Of a DNA stretch of 52,953 nucleotides, positions 2,710 through 34,159 are shown piece by piece; the first letter of the stretch is position 1, and each line of letters opens with the position of its first letter. This DNA comes from a virus. Below the pieces are notes generated by a model. It had not been told where the DNA came from, did not search any database, and was given only the letters and a program-made list of their open reading frames with translations. Position numbers and translations under genes: made by a program. The stretch spans positions 1 through 52,953 of the IMG/VR virus record IMGVR_UViG_3300022919_000001. One strand, written 5' to 3'.

Positions 2710-3254
2710 TACATTACATATCCCCCTACTCCACCTCAAAGAACATCGGCAAAGCCATTAACGATAATATTCGCCAACTTAACCCAAATGATGAAGATTG
2801 GCTAGTTTTAATCGACCATGACGTTCTATTTTTGCTCCCCGACACAAAAGCACGCCTCGAACGCATCCTATCAACAACAAATTACGACATTTTAGGCTGC
2901 GTAACAAACCGCTTAGCCATGCCGTACCAATGCGTACAGGGAATGTTCGACGAAACTGATATTCGCAAACACATTGAAGTAGCCCAAATCCTAGAATCAG
3001 ACGAAGTACAACCCTACATGCACATTTTAGCAGCATTTTGCCTATGCTTTCAGGTCAAAACGTGGAGAAAATTAGGTGGATTTGCCGAAAATAGCATACA
3101 ATTTGATACTACTTTCTCGCTAATGGCTGAAAAGAGTGGGTTAAAGAAGGGATTAATGACGGGAGTTTACCTATTTCACGCATACAGGATGTGGTCTGAC
3201 AACCCTAAACAGGACGTGGCGCATTTGCTTCCTGATATACCGCAGCAAGAGTAG
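2706..3254 (+). CDS. GT-A fold glycosyltransferase-like protein
   Basis: WLVLIDHDVLFL (DxD-like) and the overall GT2-like layout. The TTG start is coupled to the upstream ORF. Confidence 0.6.
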   Translation: MIHYISPYSTSKNIGKAINDNIRQLNPNDEDWLVLIDHDVLFLLPDTKARLERILSTTNYDILGCVTNRLAMPYQCVQGMFDETDIRKHIEVAQILESDEVQPYMHILAAFCLCFQVKTWRKLGGFAENSIQFDTTFSLMAEKSGLKKGLMTGVYLFHAYRMWSDNPKQDVAHLLPDIPQQE

Positions 3255-4569
3255 TTTTACCAGTTTGCACGTAATGCTCATTCATATACTGCTCTTTTTT
3301 CTCACCGTATTTAAGCACAGCCCTCATTTCATTTGGTGTTAAAACTCCTTCAGGTATAGATTTAAGGTAATCTGCAACATCTTTCATGTTTACCGCCATT
3401 TCAGGTAGCTGCGTATAGTCCCACTCTAAAGCATCTACGCCGTAACCCTCTGCCAACATGATTGTAAACGCCTCGCCTATCGCATCGCATATAGGTGCAA
3501 TAGCATCATAAACTAATTTAAGGGTTTCAGTGCCAACATTGTTATCTGTGCTTGCCTTTTGGTTGTGATAGCTTAGTGGCACATGGTATGCACGGTAAAC
3601 ATCTTCTTCACTTACGCCGATAACCTCTAATAATTTCAAATCACCAATTGGCAATCCTATTTGCTGCCATGCTAAAGATATTGAAGAGGGAAAAACACGG
3701 CTTAACTCGTCGTTTGACTTGCGAGCTTCAACCATTTTATCCTTTAGCTGCGTCTTTTGTTCAGGCGTTAACTGATCCTCTTTATCCCTCGGAGATAGCA
3801 CACCAAATACACCACCATTCTTAGCTTGCTTGGTAGTTTGCGTCTTACCCTCTTTAATTGCCCGTAAACTTTCAGCATAAGCCCTTAATGGCGCAACACC
3901 GTACAGATATTGCATTGTCCTGTCAACTGGGGCAAAGTTTCCTGTCTTAATATGCTGTATTTCTTCTTTCTCAAACCTTTTCAGGTCATAGCTTTGCAGA
4001 ATGTAGCCACGTATTGGGTTTAAAAAATCCTCCACATCAGCAGCAATCTCCATATTAGGAAAGCAGAACAACTCTTTTACTTTCCCTTTGCCAACTCTAA
4101 TCGGGTGAACGTAGGTATTACCCTGGTATAAGTAGCTTAGTATTGTAGTCCACATTAATTGCGTACCTGTTTGGTATGGATTAGCTTTGCCGTTAGTAAG
4201 CAATGCTTTCAAATCTGAAATATCCACCTCCTCAATAGCCAGCATTTTCATTACGTATGCTTGAACTGGATCTGTTTTTGCCAATTCTTTAGCCTTTTGC
4301 AGTTTAGCTTTATCTTTTATCTTATATCCAACAATGGGGCAGTTAAGTACTTTTTTGGTTAACAAGTCGGTTACTTCGTACGTTGCGCCAATTGTTCTGA
4401 ACGTATTGTAATAGTCTATTGCATCGGGGTTAATAGTAGGTAAGGCGTTATTCAGCCCTATATTAATCATTTGCAAAGCATTGGCATAGCTAACTGCTGC
4501 CTTGCTTGCTATTGCCTCATTAACTTTTTTGTTAATCTGTGAGCCAAATATTAAATCTACTATTCCCAT
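3205..4569 (-). CDS. Portal protein (HK97-family-like)
   Basis: 454 aa, downstream of the terminase genes on the same strand. The C-terminal ..LTPNEMRAVL.. is typical of portals. Confidence 0.8.
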   Translation of the reverse strand: MGIVDLIFGSQINKKVNEAIASKAAVSYANALQMINIGLNNALPTINPDAIDYYNTFRTIGATYEVTDLLTKKVLNCPIVGYKIKDKAKLQKAKELAKTDPVQAYVMKMLAIEEVDISDLKALLTNGKANPYQTGTQLMWTTILSYLYQGNTYVHPIRVGKGKVKELFCFPNMEIAADVEDFLNPIRGYILQSYDLKRFEKEEIQHIKTGNFAPVDRTMQYLYGVAPLRAYAESLRAIKEGKTQTTKQAKNGGVFGVLSPRDKEDQLTPEQKTQLKDKMVEARKSNDELSRVFPSSISLAWQQIGLPIGDLKLLEVIGVSEEDVYRAYHVPLSYHNQKASTDNNVGTETLKLVYDAIAPICDAIGEAFTIMLAEGYGVDALEWDYTQLPEMAVNMKDVADYLKSIPEGVLTPNEMRAVLKYGEKKEQYMNEHYVQTGKTTLAAVYQEANAPRPV

Positions 4570-4595: not shown

Positions 4596-4630
4596 ATAAA
4601 ACAAAAAACCCAACTTTTTAGGGTTGGGTT
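4596..4630 (-). terminator. Rho-independent terminator downstream of the tRNA-like genes
   Basis: Stem AACCCAAC/GTTGGGTT (4607-4614 with 4623-4630), followed on the minus strand by a T-rich run. Confidence 0.55.
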
Positions 4631-4675
4631 ACAAAAGTAGCAGGATAATGTTTCTAAATCGCTCTTTCACAAAAT

Positions 4676-4779
4676 CCTATAATGGTGGACTCGAACCACC
4701 AAACCAAAGATCATATTTAACGACGACTTTATGGCGCTTCCGTCAATCTACTGCTGGTTACCTGTTTCGCCAATTATAT
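4676..4779 (-). tRNA. tRNA-like gene B (non-canonical, about 103 nt)
   Basis: T arm GGTGG-TTCGAGT-CCACC. All-AT acceptor ATATAAT/ATTATAG with a 1:72 mismatch. TGGCGA follows the acceptor. No 5-7-5 anticodon arm was found by eye. Confidence 0.35.
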
Positions 4780-4794
4780 TTTATACTACTTTAG

Positions 4795-4892
4795 TGCAAC
4801 GGGTAGGATTCGAACCTACAACACGGAGATACCTCGAAATATCTTTATCCGCACCAGCTACCTGTTACGTCTACCAATTGCGCCACCGTTGC
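4795..4892 (-). tRNA. tRNA-like gene A (Leu-type D arm, 97 nt, no canonical anticodon arm)
   Basis: Acceptor GCAACGG/CCGTTGC, D arm TGGCGCAATTGGTAGACGT, T arm GTAGG-TTCGAAT-CCTAC. The 47-nt central part lacks a 5-7-5 arm. Confidence 0.5.
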
Positions 4893-4966
4893 TTTTTAAA
4901 AAAGGATAAATCAGCCTTGCGCTTCATTATCCCCATACCTAAACGTTAAATGAAGATTTTGTTAGT

Positions 4967-5263
4967 TTAGTCGTCAAAAGTTTGTCTATTGCTATCATAG
5001 TGAGGAATTAATTCAATAGCCTTTAACACATCGGTTATATTATAGGCCATTAAACTACCATCAAAGAAGTCAACTATCAACCCATCGGGTTTAGTTATAT
5101 CTTCCCAACTTGGAAAACAATGGTCGTTATCATCAATAAATACAGAAACATCCCATCCGCCTTCTCTACCTGTAGAATAATAACTTATCGGTTCAAACTC
5201 AATAAATGTAGGCTTATAGCCTTTAGCGATTAACGCTTTCTCTATCTTTTGTTTATTTTTCAT
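4967..5263 (-). CDS. Hypothetical protein
   Basis: ORF track; last gene of a coupled chain of small minus-strand genes. Confidence 0.55.
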   Translation of the reverse strand: MKNKQKIEKALIAKGYKPTFIEFEPISYYSTGREGGWDVSVFIDDNDHCFPSWEDITKPDGLIVDFFDGSLMAYNITDVLKAIELIPHYDSNRQTFDD

Positions 5264-6401: not shown

Positions 6402-7562
6402 TCACCAGCCGAAATCAACTTCTTTAGGCACATTAATATTCAACTTATTCAAAGCAACGTAACGCAGCGGATCAATTAAGTGATTAAACTTATCAATAGG
6501 CACATTCATTGCCCTGCCTGTCACCCTATCAACTTTCCATTTGTATTTACCCAACTCCGAACGTAGGTTAACTGAATTTCGGGTTACATTAATTTTGTAC
6601 CGCCTCAATATATCAATGCCGTTCTTAATACTATCCGGCCCTTTATTGGCACCGTAAACATTCAAACCCAATTGCTTTAGTTCCTCAATACTTTTCGGCT
6701 CTGCACTATCGGCAATTATCTCATCGTTACCAACAATACCCTTTAGTTCCCTATGTATATCAGGATTAGTAAGCCCTGTTTGATATATCAATTCATTAAC
6801 CCATAATTCACCATTTTGCAAGTAAACAGCTAATGCGCCCGTCTCATCATTCGTAAATCCAAAATCAAGTCCATAAGCCACTAATTTCGCATCTTGTGGT
6901 ATTGCTTCACAAACAAACCAATTAGATATTACCAAACCTTCGATTTTACCCGTCAATCCTCTTGCGTAAACCCTCCAAAGTTCTTGGTCGACATCTTTTA
7001 ACGCTTCGATTTTATCTCTCGTTATATCGCTTAAAAATGGGTTGTGGCGGTGGTCGCTAATTATGAGCTGCGTTGCTGGCTTTCCGAGTAGGTTATCATG
7101 CACCCAAAAAGTGTTGTTTGGGTTATAGTCAATATATATCCGTCGGGAGGTTCTTAATGATAATTCGGTATAAAATTCAAATGGTATACCGTTAGCTTCG
7201 TTAATGAATAGGTAGTCACGTTTGCCGGATTTAGCGTCCTGTGCATTATCATAAGAATTGAACTCAATCTTACTGCCGTTCTTCATGTAGAATATTCGGT
7301 CTGCCTTGTTGTAAGACTTAACCAAATACTTTAATTCCTCGCTACCATCATAGATATTAAGCGCATCCCTTAAAGCACCAACTTTTAAGTTTGGTATATC
7401 CTGACCTACTACCGTAACCACCCGCTTAGGTTCAGCACACGCCAAAACAAAAAGCACCTGCATTATGGCATAAGTCTTGCCGCTGCTGGTGCCTCCCTGA
7501 TTAACTACTACATGTCCTGTAGCATTATAGTTCGCTAAATATAAATCAGTCGCTTGAAACAT
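6402..7562 (-). CDS. terL: Terminase large subunit
   Basis: Walker A GGTSSGKTYA near the N-terminus, 386 aa, overlaps the small subunit gene, upstream of portal. Confidence 0.85.
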   Translation of the reverse strand: MFQATDLYLANYNATGHVVVNQGGTSSGKTYAIMQVLFVLACAEPKRVVTVVGQDIPNLKVGALRDALNIYDGSEELKYLVKSYNKADRIFYMKNGSKIEFNSYDNAQDAKSGKRDYLFINEANGIPFEFYTELSLRTSRRIYIDYNPNNTFWVHDNLLGKPATQLIISDHRHNPFLSDITRDKIEALKDVDQELWRVYARGLTGKIEGLVISNWFVCEAIPQDAKLVAYGLDFGFTNDETGALAVYLQNGELWVNELIYQTGLTNPDIHRELKGIVGNDEIIADSAEPKSIEELKQLGLNVYGANKGPDSIKNGIDILRRYKINVTRNSVNLRSELGKYKWKVDRVTGRAMNVPIDKFNHLIDPLRYVALNKLNINVPKEVDFGW

Positions 7563-13745: not shown

Positions 13746-14397
13746 CTTCCAATATTTCAGGCTCCCAAGCCATACTAAATTCAGCATCTTTAAAAGCCTC
13801 TGCCAAACCTGTTATTTGGGTTAGTCTCAAAACTTCGTCGGCATCCATACCTAAATGTTTAGATATTTTAGCGTCCGACCAATTGCGGCGTTTGAGATCA
13901 ATAACAATATCACTCATTCCATCTATTGAGTGCTTGCCTCTTGCTCTATTGTGCTGAACTGTAGCAGCCATACGGTCTGAAATATCTTCCTGATCTGAAC
14001 GGATTGTAACTACAGGTAAATAACCTTGTATACGCTGCTTAATATCTTCATCATTTTTGCCGCACAAATGACGGTGAAACCCATCAATAACTTCACGCCC
14101 GTTATCAGCTTTCATTGTAACGATTGGCTGAGTGTAACCGCTTGATTGAATTGATAATTTAAGCAACTCCATTTCTGGTTTTGCCACACTATTTGGGTTG
14201 TAGCTATTAGCATATACATTTTCATTTTCAACCCATAGCACACAGTCTACAGGCTCATTTTTAAAAGGCGAAACATCGTGCAATAACAACCTGCAAGCGT
14301 TTAGCAAAGCAACCTTTTCGCCCAATTCACAATTATTAATCTTTTCGGATATTTCACCCATTATTTTTAGCAGGTGTTCGGTTTCGTGACTATTCAT
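13726..14397 (-). CDS. ParB/Srx-like nuclease-domain protein (IbrB-like)
   Basis: The IDGFHRH motif of the ParB N-terminal domain. 8-nt overlap with the upstream PP-loop gene. Confidence 0.7.
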   Translation of the reverse strand: MNSHETEHLLKIMGEISEKINNCELGEKVALLNACRLLLHDVSPFKNEPVDCVLWVENENVYANSYNPNSVAKPEMELLKLSIQSSGYTQPIVTMKADNGREVIDGFHRHLCGKNDEDIKQRIQGYLPVVTIRSDQEDISDRMAATVQHNRARGKHSIDGMSDIVIDLKRRNWSDAKISKHLGMDADEVLRLTQITGLAEAFKDAEFSMAWEPEILEDEPETL

Positions 14398-15601
14398 ATT
14401 GATATTCTTTAAGTTTTTTACGTTTTTCCATTAATTTTAAATACTTCGCATATGCCTCTGTTTTGTGCTGCGTAAATCCCAATCCCTTGCACCAATAATC
14501 ATTCCTTAGAAGGGATTTACATACACGTCGCCAAGAAGGCGCCAGCCTTTCAGCTTCCATTTTATAATCAGCTTCATCTGGTATACCATCAGGATAGCCG
14601 CGCTCGCACCACCATTTATAAAACACACTGATTTTGTTTTGAAATTGAGTTTTAGTTTTATCTGGCATAGATGCCAATAGTAACTGTGCATATGACTTCC
14701 AAGTATGATGAGCGGGTTTGGTTATTTTATTATATCCGTTAATACTGCCCGTTTCCTGAATATACAACGCCCCTGAATTAGCACCGTTTACCCTTGCTAC
14801 AACTTTAGCCCATGTTTCTGGTTCAATCAAATGGAATAGCCATAATCCCCTGCGCTGATCGTCACCGTACGGTTGGCAAATACGCATTTGAGATAATGTT
14901 AAACCAGCTTTGTGCATATAGTCATAAAGTCGGTTATGTGGCATATCAGGGCGTGTTGAGTGCCAATGCCAAATGTCTTGAACCTTCCAATCGTAAATAG
15001 GGTAAATATTGTACAAATCCGGCAAAACCTGCGTAGTCCAAATTTGGTCATTATAACGAACTTTTGTTTTGCTGGCAATAGTACGCCATCTGTTTAAACT
15101 TTCGTCGGTACGGATACCGACGAAACAAGCGCAGGGCTTGCCTTGTGCGTACCACCTGCCAAATTCAGGTACAAATTCCTCGAACTCCATATCCTGAATG
15201 TAAAATGGGAATTCTGTTTTACATACATTTTTTGGCTTCTCTCTAATCCAGTCTTTTTTACGGGATTCTTCCCAACATACCCAATGAGGCTCATAAACAG
15301 ATACCGCGTTACGTAAGTGTAACGGTACACAAATCCAATACGGTTCAATGTGATCTTTGTATAATTCAAAGCATTTTTGCATATGGTCAATGGTTAGTTT
15401 ATATTGCCCCTCCAAATCAACCAGCATAACCGCAACTTTACGACCGCGTTTAATAGCTTCATCCATTACAAGGTGAAGCATAATTGTACTATCCTTACCG
15501 CCACTAAATGAAATATAAATTTTCTCAAAGTTGTCAAACGTATATGAGATACGTTGCTTTGCGCCCTCAAGTACGTTATAAGGTAAAATCTTCTTTGACA
15601 T
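14390..15601 (-). CDS. PAPS-reductase-family PP-loop ATP pyrophosphatase with long C-terminal extension (IbrA-like)
   Basis: ISFSGGKDSTIMLHLV PP-loop motif. 403 aa, i.e. about 200 aa beyond the catalytic domain. Adjacent to the ParB-like gene. Confidence 0.75.
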   Translation of the reverse strand: MSKKILPYNVLEGAKQRISYTFDNFEKIYISFSGGKDSTIMLHLVMDEAIKRGRKVAVMLVDLEGQYKLTIDHMQKCFELYKDHIEPYWICVPLHLRNAVSVYEPHWVCWEESRKKDWIREKPKNVCKTEFPFYIQDMEFEEFVPEFGRWYAQGKPCACFVGIRTDESLNRWRTIASKTKVRYNDQIWTTQVLPDLYNIYPIYDWKVQDIWHWHSTRPDMPHNRLYDYMHKAGLTLSQMRICQPYGDDQRRGLWLFHLIEPETWAKVVARVNGANSGALYIQETGSINGYNKITKPAHHTWKSYAQLLLASMPDKTKTQFQNKISVFYKWWCERGYPDGIPDEADYKMEAERLAPSWRRVCKSLLRNDYWCKGLGFTQHKTEAYAKYLKLMEKRKKLKEYQYE

Positions 15602-19372: not shown

Positions 19373-20485
19373 CTACTTCACAGCCCCGACCAATGTCGGC
19401 AACTCCATAGGCTCACTGGCTCGTAATAAGCCTGAATTTCTTATATTTATGGCTGCGTTAACGTCACGGTCAATAGTTAAGCCGCAATCGCAATTATACA
19501 CACGCTCAATTAATGGCATATCTTTTATGTTGCCGCATCCTGAACAAGTTTTAGATGTTGGCTCAAACCTGCCTACTGCAATTAACTTTCGTCCCTTCCA
19601 ATCAGCTTTATATTTCAACATGGTAGCAAACTTACTCCAAGATGCATCTGAAATTGATAAAGCTAATTTTCTATTTTTAACCATATTTTTAACAGCTAAA
19701 TCTTCTATACAAATAGTACCGTATTGATTGGTTATCTCATTTGATACGTTATGCAAAAAGTGGTTGCGCTGATTAGTTATGCGTTCATGTAGTATTGATA
19801 CTCTTAAATTTGCTTTTTTACGGTTGGCCGATCCTTTTTTCTTACGGCTTGCTCTGCGCTGTAATACCGCCAGCCTGTCTAATGATTTTCGTAATAGATT
19901 AGGCGATTCGTATTCTTTACCATCCGATAGCACCGCAAATGTTTTTATCCCTAAGTCTATCCCTACAGTACCGCTATTATGCGGAAATGGGATATTTTCT
20001 GTTTGTACTAAAATAGAAGCGTAATATTTATTAGTTGGCGTTTTTGATATAGTTGCAGATTTTACCACGCCATTAAAAGCCCGATGTTGAATTACTTTTA
20101 TGCCCTCTCTGAACTTGCCTATAAAAAGAAAACCATTTTTAATAATTATACTCTCCTTAACAAAAAATGAATTTTTGCCTGATTTTTTCTTAAGGGCTGG
20201 AAATCCTGAACCCTTAAAAAATTTACTATACGCAACGTCCATGTTAAGTATCGCCTTATCCATAGAATCCCTCGTAACTTCATTTAGCCAAGGCAAATCT
20301 TTCTTTAAGTCGGTAAGTTGCTTTTGCAAGTCGTATGCAGATAGACTATGCTTACTGCCTCTATACGCTGCTATTTTAGTTTCCAAAGCCAAATTATAAA
20401 CAAAGCGAACACACCCGAAATGCTTTTCGAGCAACACTTTTTGAGTGCCTGTAGGATATATTCGATATTTATAATATTTATACAT
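19373..20485 (-). mobile_element. tnpB: TnpB (IS200/IS605-family OrfB, RNA-guided endonuclease) without tnpA
   Basis: MYKYYKYRIYPTGTQKVLLEKHFGCVRFVYN. RuvC triad motifs GIDLG, CIEDL and DRDVNAAINI. Zinc ribbon CSGCG..CDCG. Confidence 0.85.
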
Positions 20486-22910: not shown

Positions 22911-23324
22911 ATGGAAACTAAAAAATTAGAACTTACAGAAGAAAATGAGGAAGATAAGCCTATAGGCTTTCTACCGAGATTGTTTTTGGGACTACTAATA
23001 AGTTTTGCCTTATTTGTATTTTGCTACGGCTTAGACTCAATGGCATTTCACAATAGATACTTTAATCAGTTATATGGAAAGCAAAATTCTTATAAAGTTC
23101 CGCCCAATTACCAAATAGTATCAAACGGGAAATACTACGCTATAAAAGTTATTAAAGGATATGATTCAGGGCAGTATCTTTATCACGGCAAGTATGGAAT
23201 TGAACCATATTATAAAGAGATAGCCTACGATTTGTTTTTAGATAGCGCAAATGCAAAAGCTGTTTTAAAAAGCTATATCGACGGTAAAAATGAAGACGCT
23301 CAAACATTAAACGACTTCAAATGA
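22911..23324 (+). CDS. Membrane-anchored protein (one N-proximal TM helix)
   Basis: Hydrophobic stretch LFLGLLISFALFVFCYGL after an acidic N-terminus. Confidence 0.55.
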   Translation: METKKLELTEENEEDKPIGFLPRLFLGLLISFALFVFCYGLDSMAFHNRYFNQLYGKQNSYKVPPNYQIVSNGKYYAIKVIKGYDSGQYLYHGKYGIEPYYKEIAYDLFLDSANAKAVLKSYIDGKNEDAQTLNDFK

Positions 23325-32783: not shown

Positions 32784-33215
32784 ATGTTAAAATCAGCAAT
32801 AATAAGAAAACAAGACAGAGACACCGCATTGATACTATCATTATTAGGACAGGGTGGCATACCAATAGAAGTTGAAACAGGTATTTATGAAAGCCCAAGT
32901 TTCAGCTTTGGTAACACTATTCAGAATGCCAAAGAAGATTATTTCGACTTTGAAGGTTTTGGCCCATATGGCGTATGTGACAATATAGACCAAGTTAAAG
33001 ATCGGTATTCAAAGTGGCTTAACAACCCCGAATTGGATTTCTGTATATCTTTTACTAAGGTATCAAAATCAGATCAGCCATCGGATGGCGGTTGGAGGTG
33101 GCATAAATGGGGTGAGTACATCGGAACTAAAGACCCTCAACATGAATACCTTTATGACGAAGGAAACCATATACAGGAAGTTTATGTTTATCATATTTAT
33201 CAGTTACTAACTTAA
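32784..33215 (+). CDS. Hypothetical protein
   Basis: ORF track. Confidence 0.55.
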   Translation: MLKSAIIRKQDRDTALILSLLGQGGIPIEVETGIYESPSFSFGNTIQNAKEDYFDFEGFGPYGVCDNIDQVKDRYSKWLNNPELDFCISFTKVSKSDQPSDGGWRWHKWGEYIGTKDPQHEYLYDEGNHIQEVYVYHIYQLLT

Positions 33216-33220
33216 ATCAT

Positions 33221-33343
33221 ATGGACTTACTATTCACCCTAACTGCCCTAATACTCGGCGTATTATTCAGAAAGCAAATCCGCTTTTACCTCGAAAAGAA
33301 CCCGAACGATGATAGCGATGTTAATTGGATGAAAGGGAAGTGA
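33221..33343 (+). CDS. Small membrane peptide (40 aa)
   Basis: Hand-called: MDLLFTLTALILGVLF... Confidence 0.3.
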   Translation: MDLLFTLTALILGVLFRKQIRFYLEKNPNDDSDVNWMKGK

Positions 33344-33348
33344 AATAA

Positions 33349-33466
33349 GCGGGGGTAGCTTAAGCCACAAGAGCATAAGGTAAGTGTACATTAGCCTTAC
33401 TATGGTAGTGGATGGCAGAGCAAGGCGGTTATGCCCAGTGTGAAAGTTCAAATCTTTCTCCCCGCT
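33349..33466 (+). tRNA. tRNA-like gene C (about 118 nt, non-canonical)
   Basis: Acceptor GCGGGGG/TCCCCGC, D arm GCTT-AAGCCACAA-GAGC, T arm GAAAG-TTCAAAT-CTTTC. The anticodon position holds a 10-bp hairpin with a GTAC tetraloop, followed by a 42-nt extra region. Confidence 0.45.
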
Positions 33467-33504
33467 CAAATTAAACAGGCACCCACCTGCTAAATGGGTA
33501 AAAT

Positions 33505-33646
33505 GGGGTAGTACATGGATGTTTTGGGCTGTAAGTAAGTGCGCAATGAACGCAGCCGAACGAAACGAAAAGCGGATTGATTACCTGCACGTAGTTTTGG
33601 AAACGTAGACACACAACGTTTTCGGGTTCGATCCCCGAGTACTCCA
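33505..33646 (+). tRNA. tRNA-like gene D (about 142 nt, non-canonical)
   Basis: T arm TCGGG-TTCGATC-CCCGA. 3' acceptor GTACTCC pairs with GGGGTAG at 33505 (one G:U pair, one mismatch). The interior is long and unassigned. Confidence 0.3.
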
Positions 33647-33688
33647 CACTATCGCCAAGGTAGTATAATTGTGTTTGGTTTAGGTTTA

Positions 33689-33725
33689 ACAGCGTGCCGA
33701 CTGCGAGAGGGAGCCGCTGTTTTTT
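33689..33725 (+). terminator. Terminator after the tRNA-like pair
   Basis: ACAGCG pairs with CGCTGT across a 20-nt loop, followed by T5. Confidence 0.45.
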
Positions 33726-33751
33726 AAAAGGAATTAATTAGAAATATAGAT

Positions 33752-34159
33752 ATGGAAAATCAAAGTTTAAATTCATTGTACAAAATACTGTTTACGCACC
33801 TATCGCAAAAAGATAGTAAAACAGGAATTGTTTGCTACTTATTTGCTTCATCAGATGAGGCGGTTTACGAATGGTTAAAATCAGAACCTACTATTGGTAA
33901 CGGTGATTACAATCCATGTATTTCGGGTAAACTATATTCAAGTTGGGCAGATGAGGAAACGGAAGAAGAAATTGAAGAAGGCGAGCCGTCATTTAAAGAA
34001 AGAGTAATTGAATGTAAGGGCAGAATGTTTGATGATTATTGGGAACCGTCTGATTTATATTACGGTGCAACAGAGTACGGATGGGAATGGGTTTCAGATG
34101 TTGACGACGACTTTAAACAACAGTTGATAGATTTAGATATGGCCTTTGTTGTGAAATGA
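33752..34159 (+). CDS. Acidic hypothetical protein
   Basis: ORF track. Acidic runs: ADEETEEEIEEGE and SDVDDDF. Confidence 0.55.
   Translation: MENQSLNSLYKILFTHLSQKDSKTGIVCYLFASSDEAVYEWLKSEPTIGNGDYNPCISGKLYSSWADEETEEEIEEGEPSFKERVIECKGRMFDDYWEPSDLYYGATEYGWEWVSDVDDDFKQQLIDLDMAFVVK

What the first reader, a model, noticed from the sequence alone, without database searches (positions are those of the whole stretch)
33349..33725. Second pair of over-long tRNA-like elements in a 540-bp non-coding gap, followed by a terminator
- The plus-strand gap 33344..33751 has no credible ORF.
- **Element C** (33349..33466):
  - acceptor GCGGGGG/TCCCCGC;
  - D arm GCTT-AAGCCACAA-GAGC;
  - T arm GAAAG-TTCAAAT-CTTTC.
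- Where C's anticodon arm should be there is a 10-bp hairpin, TAAGGTAAGT[GTAC]ATTAGCCTTA. A further 42 nt follow before the T arm, for a total of about 118 nt.
- **Element D** (33505..33646) has T arm TCGGG-TTCGATC-CCCGA. Its 3' acceptor strand GTACTCC pairs only with GGGGTAG about 140 nt upstream.
- A hairpin plus T5 at 33689..33725 closes the unit.
- Together with the pair at 4676..4892, the phage carries four tRNA-shaped genes that all deviate in the anticodon region. That argues for a shared non-decoding function or an unusual processing step rather than random decay.
Basis: partly seen in the sequence, partly recalled or inferred. Interest (0 to 1): 0.65.

Follow-up and report, generated by a model that had tools for sequence, protein, structure and literature searches.

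The report
Oversized tRNA-like genes in a phage
In a gene-free gap of a phage genome sit one clearly tRNA-derived gene and one weaker one; both keep a tRNA's upper half but have bloated middles that cannot read codons, an oddity seen in other phages whose use is still unknown.

Summary
The sequence features are real, but the two elements are unequal.

**Element C (33349-33466)** is convincingly tRNA-derived. It has a 7/7 acceptor stem, U8-A9, a D stem closed by A26, and a perfect T arm. Its 67-nt middle cannot form a canonical anticodon arm.

**Element D (33505-33646)** has a perfect T arm. Its acceptor pairs at only 6 of 7 positions, which is chance level once a T arm is given. It has no D arm, and the T arm is absent from its minimum-energy fold.

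- **Detection:** ARAGORN and Rfam call no tRNA, tmRNA, intron or ribozyme in the gap.
- **Homologues:** none was found in GenBank phages, IMG/VR, JGI metagenomes or 185,579 genomes.
- **Relatives:** phages with 60-78% identical flanking proteins lack the elements, as they lack the first pair. All four elements appear to be lineage-specific.
- **Terminator:** the hairpin belongs to an intergenic cassette conserved in relatives that have no tRNA-like genes.

**Best reading (about 0.4):** these are co-transcribed, non-decoding tRNA-like small RNAs. Their acceptor/T-arm half would serve as a handle for processing and stability, as in phage T4 RNAC/RNAD.

**Main rival (about 0.3):** decaying tRNA genes.

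Oversized aberrant tRNA-like genes also occur in Lak megaphages and in an unrelated IMG/VR phage (L026). This is a new variant of a known, unexplained kind, of modest interest.

The parts
33349..33466 (+). Element C: a tRNA-derived gene of 118 nt. It comprises acceptor 33349-55 / 33459-65, U8 A9, D stem 33358-61 / 33371-74, A26, an aberrant 67-nt middle, T arm 33442-58 and discriminator T33466. No CCA is encoded.
   Evidence: - Sequence read.
- The strict scan (perfect T arm plus 7/7 acceptor) gives 2 hits against 0.125 in shuffles.
- Not called by ARAGORN or by Rfam at its gathering score.
- Only a truncated 16.7-bit tRNA hit covers 33425-33466.
- MFE -38.7 kcal/mol, z = -1.98.
33376..33441 (+). 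Aberrant middle of C (positions 27-48 of the tRNA numbering; A26 at 33375 completes the 67 nt between the D stem and the T arm): the hairpin TAAGG..CCTTA (33376-99) plus a 42-nt 'variable' region (33400-41).
   Evidence: - The hairpin has three competing registers within 3 kcal/mol. One has an 8-bp stem, a bulged G and the 7-nt loop GUGUACA.
- The global MFE prefers a 64-nt long arm closed by GCUU and the second GAGC, plus the small hairpin GGCG-GUUA-UGCC. That fold is -38.7 kcal/mol against -23.8 for the classical D-arm fold.
- No single deletion yields a loop with U33.
33467..33504 (+). 38-nt spacer between C and D, containing a weak hairpin ACCCA..TGGGT.
   Evidence: - MFE -4.9 kcal/mol, z = +0.14, so not distinguishable from shuffles.
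- On the minus strand it was flagged as a terminator-like site, 33500-33480.
33505..33646 (+). Element D: a candidate tRNA-like RNA of 142 nt. It has a perfect T arm (33622-38), a 3' acceptor-like strand GTACTCC (33639-45), A73, and an imperfect 5' partner GGGGTAG (33505-11; 6/7 pairs, with G3-U70). There is no D arm and no anticodon arm. The 5' boundary is uncertain.
   Evidence: - Sequence read; scans.
- The T arm's position in a gap is highly non-random, but the acceptor pairing is at chance level.
- The MFE does not form the T arm; z = -1.09.
- The only Rfam hit is 7.5 bits on the T arm.
- D never yields a tRNA in the deletion scan at the default ARAGORN threshold.
33664..33725 (+). Conserved intergenic cassette upstream of the 135-aa gene: ATTGTGtT-GGTTTAGGTTTA, then a hairpin 33690-33719 with apical loop GCGAG, then T6 (33720-25).
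   Evidence: - The same cassette occurs in L041 (~525-590) and L051 (~1056-1115), where there are no tRNA-like genes.
- All three copies fold into a hairpin with a GCGAG loop on different stems: -12.9, -21.9 and -21.4 kcal/mol.
- Not called by the terminator scan.
33221..33343 (+). 40-aa ORF with a hydrophobic N-terminus. It ends 5 nt before C. It is context, and is absent at this position in relatives L040 and L043.
   Evidence: ORF listed. No family hit. Relatives compared.
4795..4892 (-). Element A of the first pair: tRNA-like, 98 nt, with a type-II D arm. Its anticodon stem ACAGG/CUGGU encloses a 3-nt loop, and its variable arm is about 31 nt.
   Evidence: - Rfam tRNA 36 bits, with 39 nt where the model has 17.
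- 7/7 acceptor and a perfect T arm.
- The same acceptor and T arm occur in canonical phage tRNA-Tyr (L068) and tRNA-Cys (L069).
4677..4794 (-). Element B of the first pair: a perfect T arm GGTGG-TTCGAGT-CCACC with a 6/7 AT-rich acceptor. It is a weak candidate, like D.
   Evidence: Fold z = -0.41.

Best explanation
C, and less certainly D, are non-decoding tRNA-like small-RNA genes derived from phage tRNA genes.

**Proposed mechanism**
- They are transcribed with the upstream + strand genes. C starts 5 nt after a stop codon and has no terminator before it.
- Host tRNA-maturation enzymes then cut them out of the transcript.
- The intact acceptor/T-arm stack is the known minimal substrate for RNase P, 3' trimming and CCA addition.
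- That half would therefore act as a handle for processing and stability.
- The enlarged middle (67 nt in C, about 108 nt in D) replaces the anticodon domain, so the RNAs cannot read codons.
- The products would be stable RNAs of about 118 and 142 nt, comparable to T4 RNAD (119 nt) and RNAC (139 nt).

**Shown:** tRNA ancestry of C; the T arm of D; absence of a canonical anticodon arm; co-orientation with flanking genes; a GC-rich, ORF-free island; lineage-specific presence.

**Inferred:** transcription, processing, stability and any downstream role.
For: - **Anatomy:** C's features are as read.
- **Non-random placement:** T arms number 5 against 2.1 +/- 1.4 in shuffles, and 4 of the 5 sit on the coding strand of two gaps.
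- **Strict tRNA-like hits:** 2 against 0.125 expected.
- **Ancestry of A:** it shares its top half with canonical phage tRNA-Tyr and tRNA-Cys genes.
- **No decoding arm:** ARAGORN and Rfam reject the elements. No excision restores U33 and a 7-nt loop on a 5-bp stem.
- **Length:** all four elements are longer than tRNAs, not shorter.
- **Composition:** GC is 0.45-0.47 across the gap against 0.30-0.40 in the flanks.
- **T4 precedent:** RNAD (119 nt) and RNAC (139 nt, with T arm CCGGG-TTCGAAT-CCCGG) are adjacent, expressed, and of unknown role (PMC3014915; PMC9697503).
- **Independent phage:** L026 carries a strongly structured 129-nt tRNA-like element (z = -3.74). It is a paralogue of a 96-nt tRNA-like gene with the same acceptor and D arm.
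Against: - No homologue of C or D was found in any collection searched.
- The elements are absent from the nearest relatives. There is therefore no covariation evidence and no sign of purifying selection.
- Fold stabilities are unremarkable: C z = -1.98, D z = -1.09.
- D's cloverleaf-like fold is not its MFE, and its acceptor pairing is at chance level.
- The four middles have nothing in common.
- No expression data are available.
Confidence: 0.4

Rival explanations
1. These are decaying tRNA genes (pseudogenes). The phage lineage acquired two small tRNA clusters that are no longer needed. Indels have wrecked the anticodon regions, while the GC-rich acceptor and T stems have simply not yet been hit.
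For: - The elements are not conserved in any relative.
- The second element of each pair (B, D) has lost its D arm and has an imperfect acceptor.
- Fold z-scores are near those of shuffles.
- The middles are unrelated to one another.
- Homologues of the upstream 143-aa protein sit inside intact tRNA arrays in larger phages. An ancestral tRNA cluster at this spot is therefore plausible.
Against: - All four elements are longer than a tRNA, by 22 to about 70 nt. Neutral decay in compact phage genomes is usually deletional (general knowledge).
- Stems totalling 12 bp are perfect in A and C, and all four T arms are perfect. This sits alongside a completely rebuilt middle and is an uneven pattern for random decay.
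- The close relatives have no tRNAs at all. The elements therefore look recently gained rather than anciently decaying.
Confidence: 0.3
2. They are unusual but functional decoding tRNAs. C would be a type-II, tRNA-Tyr-like molecule: an anticodon stem extended to 8 bp, the 7-nt loop G-U-GUA-C-A and a giant variable arm. Alternatively they are tRNAs with short introns removed by an unknown pathway, as proposed for Lak megaphages.
For: - One register of C's hairpin gives a 7-nt loop with U33 and GUA.
- A's top half matches a phage tRNA-Tyr(GTA).
- Phage tRNAs with atypically long variable arms are common in the fetched loci, for example an 85-nt and a 95-nt tRNA-Asn(GTT) and an 89-nt tRNA-Met.
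- Lak megaphages have oversized 'pseudo tRNAs' read as intron-bearing (PMC6784885).
Against: - The GUA-loop register is the least stable of the three: -3.5 against -5.0 and -6.5 kcal/mol.
- An 8-bp anticodon stem would change the anticodon-to-acceptor distance required for decoding (general knowledge).
- Position 37 would be C, not a purine.
- C lacks G18-G19.
- Lak introns sit at 37/38 between canonical exons and contain an inner mini-tRNA. Neither is true here.
- No excision gives a canonical loop.
- D has no candidate anticodon arm.
- No group I intron, bulge-helix-bulge motif or ribozyme is present.
- Long ORFs read normally in code 11, so nothing suggests the genome is recoded.
Confidence: 0.1
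3. The 3' halves are copies of a host tRNA or tmRNA 3' end. That would make them phage attachment (attP) cores for integration into a tRNA gene.
For: D consists essentially of a T arm plus a 3' acceptor strand ending in A73. This is the part that attP sites usually duplicate (general knowledge).
Against: - C's 20-nt T-loop/acceptor string occurs in only two of 185,579 species genomes: a Nanoarchaeota tRNA-Leu and a chance site.
- D's 21-nt string is absent from JGI metagenomes and its 24-nt string from IMG/VR.
- No integrase was found among about 36 proteins scanned.
- C also carries the 5' half of the tRNA.
Confidence: 0.03
4. D is a miniature tmRNA-like molecule: an alanine-accepting tRNA-like domain (G3-U70, A73) flanking a short tag-coding insert.
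For: - The acceptor GGGGUAG/GUACUCC has G1-C72, G2-C71, G3-U70, G4-C69 and A73.
- The 5' end GGGGUAGUACAUGGAU resembles E. coli tmRNA GGGGCUGAUUCUGGAU (from memory).
- A 19-codon frame (translating AAERNEKRIDYLHVVLET) ends in UAG inside D.
Against: - ARAGORN's tmRNA search finds nothing here, even at a lowered threshold.
- Rfam tmRNA families give only a 7.5-bit T-arm hit.
- At 142 nt it is far shorter than bacterial tmRNAs, and no pseudoknots are evident.
- The possible tag has no ..LAA-type ending.
- The acceptor pairing is at chance level.
Confidence: 0.02

Closest known systems
Phage T4 RNAD (species 2, 119 nt) and RNAC (species 1, 139 nt)
   Same: - Two adjacent small-RNA genes in a phage, co-oriented with tRNA or tRNA-like genes.
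- Almost the same lengths and order: 118 then 142 nt here, 119 then 139 nt in T4.
- RNAC ends in a perfect T arm followed by a short 3' strand, like D.
- Function unknown after 50 years (PMC3014915; PMC9697503).
   Different: - No sequence similarity.
- T4 RNAD has no T arm, whereas C is a nearly complete tRNA shell.
- The T4 RNAs sit in a cluster of eight canonical tRNAs, whereas this phage has none.
- RNAC is strongly structured (z = -4.57), unlike D (z = -1.09).
Oversized 'pseudo tRNAs' with enigmatic introns in Lak megaphages of Prevotella (Devoto et al. 2019, PMC6784885)
   Same: Phage tRNA genes that are much longer than expected, are rejected by bacterial tRNA models, and carry the extra sequence in the anticodon region.
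   Different: - Lak inserts are 79-114 nt, placed exactly at 37/38 between canonical exons with a readable anticodon.
- Each Lak insert holds an inner acceptor/T-arm mini-tRNA.
- C and D have no canonical exons, no readable anticodon loop and no inner T arm.
Canonical type-II phage tRNAs (e.g. L068 tRNA-Tyr(GTA), 91 nt) and long-variable-arm allo-tRNAs (PMC5389517)
   Same: - Acceptor, D-arm and T-arm design, with a long variable arm.
- A shares its acceptor and T arm exactly with L068 tRNA-Tyr.
   Different: - Those tRNAs have a 5-bp anticodon stem with a 7-nt loop and are called by ARAGORN and Rfam.
- A has a 3-nt loop.
- C has a 14-nt loop, or an 8-bp stem, and a 42-nt variable region.
- D has no anticodon arm.
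tmRNA tRNA-like domain
   Same: An acceptor/T-arm minihelix without an anticodon arm. D carries the G3-U70 and A73 alanine identity set.
   Different: No tag frame with a resume context, no pseudoknots, about 40% of the usual length, and no model match.
tRNA-like handles on other RNAs: gammaherpesvirus MHV68 tRNA-miRNA transcripts, plant-virus 3' TLS, engineered tRNA scaffolds (from my own knowledge; TLS reviews listed)
   Same: A tRNA top half is used for processing, stability or enzyme recruitment while the rest of the RNA does something else.
   Different: Those are eukaryotic or RNA-virus systems. Nothing links them to these elements by descent.

Membership tests
Canonical tRNA (Rfam RF00005 / ARAGORN) | 7-bp acceptor stem with a discriminator base | tested here: met
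   C pairs 7/7 (one G-U) with U73. D pairs only 6/7 with A73, which is at chance level.
Canonical tRNA (Rfam RF00005 / ARAGORN) | T arm: 5-bp stem and 7-nt loop TTCRANN, with G53-C61 | tested here: met
   Both C and D have it.
Canonical tRNA (Rfam RF00005 / ARAGORN) | D arm with U8, A14, G18-G19 and A21 | tested here: inconclusive
   C has U8, A9, a 4-bp D stem, A14 and A26, but its D loop AAGCCACAA lacks GG. D has no D arm.
Canonical tRNA (Rfam RF00005 / ARAGORN) | Anticodon arm: 5-bp stem and 7-nt loop with U33 and a purine at 37 | tested here: not met
   C has a 5-bp stem with a 14-nt loop, or an 8-bp stem with the loop GUGUACA (C at 37). D has none. No single excision repairs this.
Canonical tRNA (Rfam RF00005 / ARAGORN) | Length of about 70-95 nt and a score above the family threshold | tested here: not met
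   Lengths are 118 and 142 nt. ARAGORN finds 0 genes. Rfam gives 16.7 bits against a gathering score of 29 for C, and only a 7.5-bit T-arm hit for D.
tmRNA | tRNA-like domain with G3-U70, plus a tag reading frame, pseudoknots and a length of roughly 230-400 nt | tested here: not met
   D has G3-U70 only. There is no ARAGORN tmRNA call and no Rfam tmRNA match. It is 142 nt long.
tRNA interrupted by a group I intron | Catalytic core of more than 200 nt in the anticodon loop that matches the intron model | tested here: not met
   The inserts are 22-70 nt. No intron hit appears even at E <= 10.
Lak-type intron-bearing phage tRNA | Canonical exons with a readable anticodon; insert at 37/38; inner mini-tRNA within the insert | tested here: not met
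   No canonical exon junction exists. There is no inner T arm. Compared with Table S6 of PMC6784885.
Theta (minimal HDV-like) ribozyme flanking phage tRNAs | Nested P1/P1.1/P2/P3 helices with the core ACC-T-NC-NCGY-GGT and a catalytic C, starting within about 5 nt of the tRNA 3' end | tested here: not met
   A permissive structural scan, validated on a published example, gives no hit in either gap. The core motif occurs at chance level. The one 1-mismatch hit inside D has no P1, P1.1 or P2 partners. The motif was taken from PMC10879173.
T4 RNAC/RNAD-type phage stable RNAs | Sequence or structure homology to T4 rnaC/rnaD | tested here: not met
   There is no blastn similarity to any GenBank phage at the rnaC/rnaD locus. 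The resemblance is one of size, arrangement and T arm only.
T4 RNAC/RNAD-type phage stable RNAs | Accumulates as a discrete stable RNA, processed with the tRNAs | not testable with these tools
   No expression data are available for this contig.
attP core copying a host tRNA 3' end | Identity to a host tRNA or tmRNA 3' segment, with an integrase nearby | tested here: not met
   No bacterial tRNA carries C's 3' end. D's 3' end is absent from metagenomes and IMG/VR. No integrase was found among the proteins scanned. Not all 83 ORFs were scanned.

The most novel reading that the evidence does not exclude
The phage makes anticodon-less tRNA mimics that can still be charged.

- **Identity elements:** the acceptor ends carry classical anticodon-independent or acceptor-based sets. 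C has G1-C72, C2-G71, G3-C70 and U73 (glycine-like). D has G3-U70 and A73 (alanine). A has a type-II shell with A73 (Leu/Tyr-like). The decoding loop of each is disabled.
- **Possible roles:** such RNAs could carry aminoacyl groups for a non-ribosomal use. They could also act as decoys that soak up host factors recognising the tRNA body, such as tRNA-targeting defence nucleases, synthetases or EF-Tu.
- **Wider occurrence:** a similar 129-nt element in an unrelated phage (L026) would make this a wider, unrecognised class of phage RNA.
Probability: 0.1. Interest if true: 0.75.

Novelty: new variant of a known kind. Interest (0 to 1): 0.35.

Why it matters
- **If expressed and processed:** they would add a second, independent example to the unexplained T4 RNAC/RNAD class, in a small 53-kb phage that has no ordinary tRNAs.
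- **What that would suggest:** phages may repeatedly convert tRNA genes into non-decoding RNAs that exploit the host's tRNA-maturation machinery.
- **Why it is topical:** tRNA-targeting antiphage defences and phage counter-tRNAs are an active field (PMC10264068).
- **If pseudogenes:** they record a recent gain and loss of tRNA genes and are ordinary.
- **Practical point:** standard tRNA finders miss these elements entirely, so such genes are probably under-counted in phage genomes.

Tried and rejected
1. **Standard detectors.** ARAGORN was run at default settings, with introns up to 200 nt, and in tmRNA mode at a lowered threshold. The only output was an artefactual tRNA-Thr with a 175-nt 'intron' at 4794-5064 and spurious tmRNAs elsewhere. 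Rfam at E <= 10 on the gap gave only sub-threshold T-arm hits.
2. **Orthologues through flanking genes.**
   - The 135-aa downstream protein led to L040-L043. Their gaps are 70, 248 and 25 nt, and L042's contig holds only 54 nt upstream of the gene. None is similar to C or D.
   - The 143-aa upstream protein led to L002-L039 and L044-L049, with no T arms in the close relatives.
   - The portal protein led to L050 and L051, which have no pair-1 elements.
3. **Exact and gapped DNA patterns.** Patterns for C and D were scanned in IMG/VR, JGI metagenomes and GTDB genomes. There were no homologues and no host tRNA donor.
4. **blastn against GenBank phages.** The whole gap, and C and D separately, gave only chance hits at E >= 0.4.
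5. **Single-intron hypothesis.** All 6,883 single deletions of A-D were passed to ARAGORN. Many weak and mutually inconsistent calls appeared for A, B and C, and none for D at the default threshold. None had a canonical loop.
6. **Bulge-helix-bulge reading of C's hairpin.** The two 3-nt loops face each other rather than being staggered, so this was rejected by inspection.
7. **Theta/HDV-like ribozyme next to the elements.** Rejected.
8. **tmRNA reading of D.** Rejected.
9. **The 143-aa neighbour as a tRNA enzyme.** No Pfam, NCBIfam or PDB match. The predicted fold is confident but has no solved relative.
10. **Proteome scan for RNA ligase, endonuclease, CCA-adding enzyme or integrase.** None was found among about 36 proteins. 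Roughly 50 smaller ORFs were not scanned.
11. **Consensus fold of the cassette from a MAFFT alignment.** Uninformative because the stems were misaligned. Single-sequence folds were used instead.
Full report
**1. Setting**

The window is a phage-like contig of 52,953 bases with 37.8% G+C.
- It encodes a large terminase (6402-7562, minus strand) and a portal protein (3205-4569, minus strand).
- It also encodes a primase, a helicase, RecT, a PD-(D/E)XK nuclease, a TnpB-like protein and an HNH endonuclease.
- It has no close relative in GenBank phages.
- The finding lies in a block of small + strand genes. The order is: a 143-aa ORF (32784-33215), a 40-aa ORF (33221-33343), the gap (33344-33751), then a 135-aa ORF (33752-34159).
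- The gap is 408 nt.

**2. Checking the observation: element C**

Every feature described for C is present at the stated coordinates.
- The acceptor GCGGGGG/TCCCCGC pairs 7/7.
- U8-A9 follow, then the D stem GCTT/GAGC closed by A26.
- Next come a hairpin on TAAGG/CCTTA, 42 further bases, the T arm GAAAG-TTCAAAT-CTTTC, and discriminator T.
- The 5' half reads GCGGGGGTAGCTTAAGCCACAAGAGCA. Apart from its D loop this is a textbook tRNA 5' half.

**3. Checking the observation: element D**

- The T arm TCGGG-TTCGATC-CCCGA is perfect.
- The only upstream partner of GTACTCC is GGGGTAG, 141 nt away. It pairs 6/7, with G3-U70.
- D has no D arm and no candidate anticodon arm.
- Its minimum-energy fold does not even form the T arm.

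**4. Is this more than chance?**

- Perfect T arms occur 5 times in the window, against 2.1 +/- 1.4 in shuffles.
- Four of the five lie on the transcribed strand of two gaps of about 400 nt. About 0.016 would be expected there. The fifth, at 23193-23209, lies antisense inside an ORF.
- A perfect T arm followed by a 7/7 acceptor occurs twice (A and C), against 0.125 in dinucleotide shuffles; P(>=2) = 0.025.
- With one acceptor mismatch allowed, shuffles already give 1.9 hits per window.
- C is therefore a secure tRNA-derived element.
- D has a secure T arm, but its boundaries and its 'acceptor' are not established.
- The gap is also a G+C island, at 0.45-0.47 against 0.30-0.40 in the flanks.

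**5. What the detectors say**

- ARAGORN finds no tRNA or tmRNA in the window.
- Allowing introns yields only an artefact at 4794-5064.
- Rfam at gathering scores finds one hit in the window. This is element A (4795-4892, minus strand) as tRNA at 36 bits, with 39 nt where the model has 17.
- On the gap itself, even at E <= 10, Rfam reports only a truncated 16.7-bit tRNA match at C's 3' end and a 7.5-bit T-arm match in D. No intron, ribozyme or tmRNA is reported.
- The minus-strand ORFs overlapping C and D have non-ATG starts and no credible family match.

**6. Anatomy of the middles**

C's hairpin can pair in three registers within 3 kcal/mol:
- the MFE register, at -6.5 kcal/mol;
- an 8-bp stem with a bulged G and the 7-nt loop G-U-GUA-C-A, at -3.5 kcal/mol.

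Further points:
- For the whole molecule, the thermodynamically preferred fold keeps the acceptor and T arm. It replaces the D arm by a 64-nt irregular hairpin, closed by GCUU and a second GAGC.
- It also replaces the anticodon arm by the small hairpin GGCG-GUUA-UGCC. This fold is -38.7 kcal/mol, against -23.8 for the classical D-arm fold.
- I tested the intron idea exhaustively. All 6,883 single deletions of A-D were given to ARAGORN.
- Many mutually inconsistent, weak calls appear for A, B and C. None has U33, a purine at 37, a 5-bp stem and correct spacers together. D never gives a tRNA at the default threshold.
- C's 3+3 internal loop is not a bulge-helix-bulge motif.
- The elements therefore cannot decode in the usual geometry. 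No simple splicing restores a tRNA.

**7. Relatives**

- The downstream 135-aa protein has homologues at 64-78% identity. In their contigs the corresponding intergenic space is 70 nt (L040), 25 nt (L043) or 248 nt (L041). None resembles C or D.
- The upstream 143-aa protein has hundreds of homologues. The closest contigs (L044-L049, 63-75% identity) contain no T arm at all.
- The two closest portal relatives (78% and 62% identity) lack elements A and B. They retain the flanking ORF, terminator and promoter region.
- Exact and gapped patterns for C and D found nothing in IMG/VR or in JGI metagenomes.
- C's T-loop/acceptor string occurs in only two of 185,579 reference genomes. Neither is a plausible donor.
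- All four elements therefore look lineage-specific. No covariation test is possible. The 'copy of a host tRNA 3' half' idea is unsupported.

**8. Where they came from**

- A's T arm and acceptor (GTAGG-TTCGAAT-CCTAC / GCAACGG-CCGTTGC) recur in canonical tRNAs of other uncultured phages. These are a 91-nt tRNA-Tyr(GTA) in L068 and a 78-nt tRNA-Cys(GCA) in L069.
- Against the tRNA-Tyr, A keeps the acceptor, a type-II D arm and the T arm.
- A's anticodon stem ACAGG/CUGGU encloses only 3 nt, and its variable arm has grown to about 31 nt.
- This is direct evidence that at least one of the four is a remodelled phage tRNA. By analogy the same is likely for C.
- An independent case turned up in L026, from a 121-kb IMG/VR phage.
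- There, a 96-nt tRNA-like gene (41 bits, 8-nt anticodon loop) has a paralogue of 129 nt with the same acceptor and D arm.
- The paralogue has a 5-nt 'anticodon' loop on the perfect stem CCCAC/GUGGG and a 62-nt variable region. Rfam does not recognise it, and it is strongly structured (z = -3.74).
- It lies two genes upstream of a homologue of the 143-aa protein.

**9. The 'terminator'**

- The hairpin at 33690-33719 plus T6 is real, at -12.9 kcal/mol. Its loop is large, so the terminator scan did not call it.
- Together with the preceding ATTGTGtT-GGTTTAGGTTTA it forms a cassette. The cassette recurs upstream of genes in L041 and L051, where there are no tRNA-like elements.
- In all three copies the stems differ but the apical loop is GCGAG closed by U-A.
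- In IMG/VR only the L051 contig carries a true copy.
- The hairpin may well terminate the transcript that includes C and D. It is nevertheless a feature of the gene junction, not of a 'tRNA-like unit'.

**10. Most likely mechanism**

- C begins 5 nt after the stop codon of the 40-aa ORF, with no terminator in between. Both elements are co-oriented with the operon.
- The acceptor/T-arm coaxial stack is the known minimal substrate of RNase P, and of 3' trimming and CCA addition (established knowledge of tRNA maturation).
- I therefore propose that the operon transcript is cut at G33349 and after T33466, and perhaps around D. This would release stable tRNA-like RNAs of about 118 and 142 nt that cannot decode.
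- Cleavage would also define the 3' end of the upstream mRNA.
- The ancestry, the lack of a decoding arm and the arrangement are shown. Transcription, processing and any downstream role are inferred.
- I put this at about 0.4.
- The main rival is recently acquired tRNA genes in decay, at about 0.3. It explains the lack of conservation and the poor state of B and D.
- It explains less well why all four elements grew rather than shrank, and why 12 bp of stems stay perfect in A and C beside a completely rebuilt middle.
- Odd decoding tRNAs or spliced tRNAs (0.1), attP cores (0.03) and a mini-tmRNA (0.02) are disfavoured by the tests above.
- Theta (HDV-like) ribozymes flank tRNAs in many gut phages (PMC10879173). 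They are absent from both gaps.

**11. Comparison with what is known**

- **Phage T4.** The closest analogue in behaviour is the T4 pair RNAD (119 nt) and RNAC (139 nt). They are adjacent, follow tRNA-Arg, and RNAC ends in a perfect T arm. They are expressed, and their role is still unknown (PMC3014915; PMC9697503).
  - The resemblance in size and order (118 then 142 nt) is striking, but there is no sequence similarity.
  - The structural parallel is partial. T4 RNAD has no T arm, and RNAC is far more stable than D.
- **Lak megaphages.** These carry 'pseudo tRNAs substantially larger than expected', interpreted as intron-bearing (PMC6784885). Their inserts sit at 37/38 between canonical exons and contain an inner mini-tRNA, which is not the case here.
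- Membership in tRNA, tmRNA, intron-tRNA, theta-ribozyme and attP classes was tested and not met. See the membership table.

**12. Verdict**

The elements are tRNA-derived and non-decoding.
- The elements are best filed as a new variant of a known but unexplained kind: phage tRNA-like or aberrant tRNA genes.
- Interest is modest at 0.35. It would rise if the RNAs prove to be expressed and charged.
- The acceptor ends carry classical identity sets. These are G1-C72, C2-G71, G3-C70 and U73 in C, and G3-U70 and A73 in D (established identity rules, reviewed in PMC9976931).
- These identity sets leave room for a more novel 'chargeable, anticodon-less mimic' reading, at a probability of about 0.1.

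Noticed in passing
window 33664-33725; L041 ~525-590; L051 ~1056-1115 (= L055): A clade-specific intergenic cassette: ATTGTGaT-GGTTTAGGTT(T)A, followed by a hairpin. The stems differ between phages, but the apical loop is always GCGAG closed by U-A. It lies 20-30 nt upstream of a start codon. It could be a terminator with a protein-binding loop, or a regulatory hairpin.
   Followed up: partly
L026 2350-2478 and 246-341 (IMGVR_UViG_3300042348_001111): A 129-nt tRNA-like element has the same acceptor (AGTCAGG/CCTGACT) and D arm as a 96-nt tRNA-like gene in the same phage. It has a 5-nt 'anticodon' loop and a 62-nt variable region, and is strongly structured (z = -3.74). Rfam does not recognise it. 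It lies two genes upstream of a homologue of the 143-aa protein.
   Followed up: partly
window 32784-33215 (+): The 143-aa protein belongs to a widespread phage family with the invariant motif GGWRWHKWGEYIG..EYLYDE. It has no Pfam or NCBIfam domain. The AlphaFold model is confident (pLDDT 93.6) but has no match among solved structures. In 11 of 38 IMG/VR loci, tRNA genes lie within 3 kb of it.
   Followed up: partly
window 4677-4892 (-): The first pair (A and B) is bracketed by two terminator-like hairpins with T runs: GGATAA..TTATCC-T6 at about 4897-4933, and AACCCAAC..GTTGGGTT-T6 at about 4603-4631. It lies between a 98-aa ORF and the portal gene. The closest portal relatives (L050, L051) lack both elements.
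   Followed up: partly
L068 12262-12356; L010 3428-3512; L005 4350-4438; L023 4788-4872: Several phage tRNAs that ARAGORN calls class-I isoacceptors (Asn, Met, Cys) are 85-95 nt long and have long variable arms. An example is the tRNA-Asn(GTT) with arm TCTTGGGGATAAAACCCCTTAG. They may be allo-tRNA-like.
   Followed up: no
window 19373-20485 (-): A TnpB-like protein (HTH_OrfB_IS605, OrfB_IS605 and Cas12f1-like TNB domains) is encoded inside the phage. Its guide RNA region was not examined. A similar gene lies in relative L046 (9307-10377).
   Followed up: no
window 14390-15601 (-): A PAPS-reductase/PP-loop protein fused to DUF3440, next to the replication genes. It may be a DNA- or nucleotide-modification enzyme.
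   Followed up: no
window 33508-33516, 33659-33669 (+) and ~4781-4791 (-): The string GTAGTA(C/T)A occurs at the 5' end of D, just after D (GGTAGTATAAT, which looks like a -10 box), and between A and B. It could be promoter-like or coincidental.
   Followed up: no
L046 5436-6286; L047 7074-8011; L048 2110-3137: Relatives carry non-coding gaps of 850-1030 nt downstream of the 143-aa homologue (directly after it in L046, a few genes further on in L047 and L048). These gaps have no T arms and no Rfam hits. Their content is unknown.
   Followed up: no
window 33583-33595 (+): ACCTGCACGTAGT inside D differs by one base from the conserved core of theta (HDV-like) ribozymes, ACC-T-GC-ACGT-GGT. The required P1, P1.1 and P2 partners are absent, and such one-mismatch hits occur at chance frequency.
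   Followed up: yes
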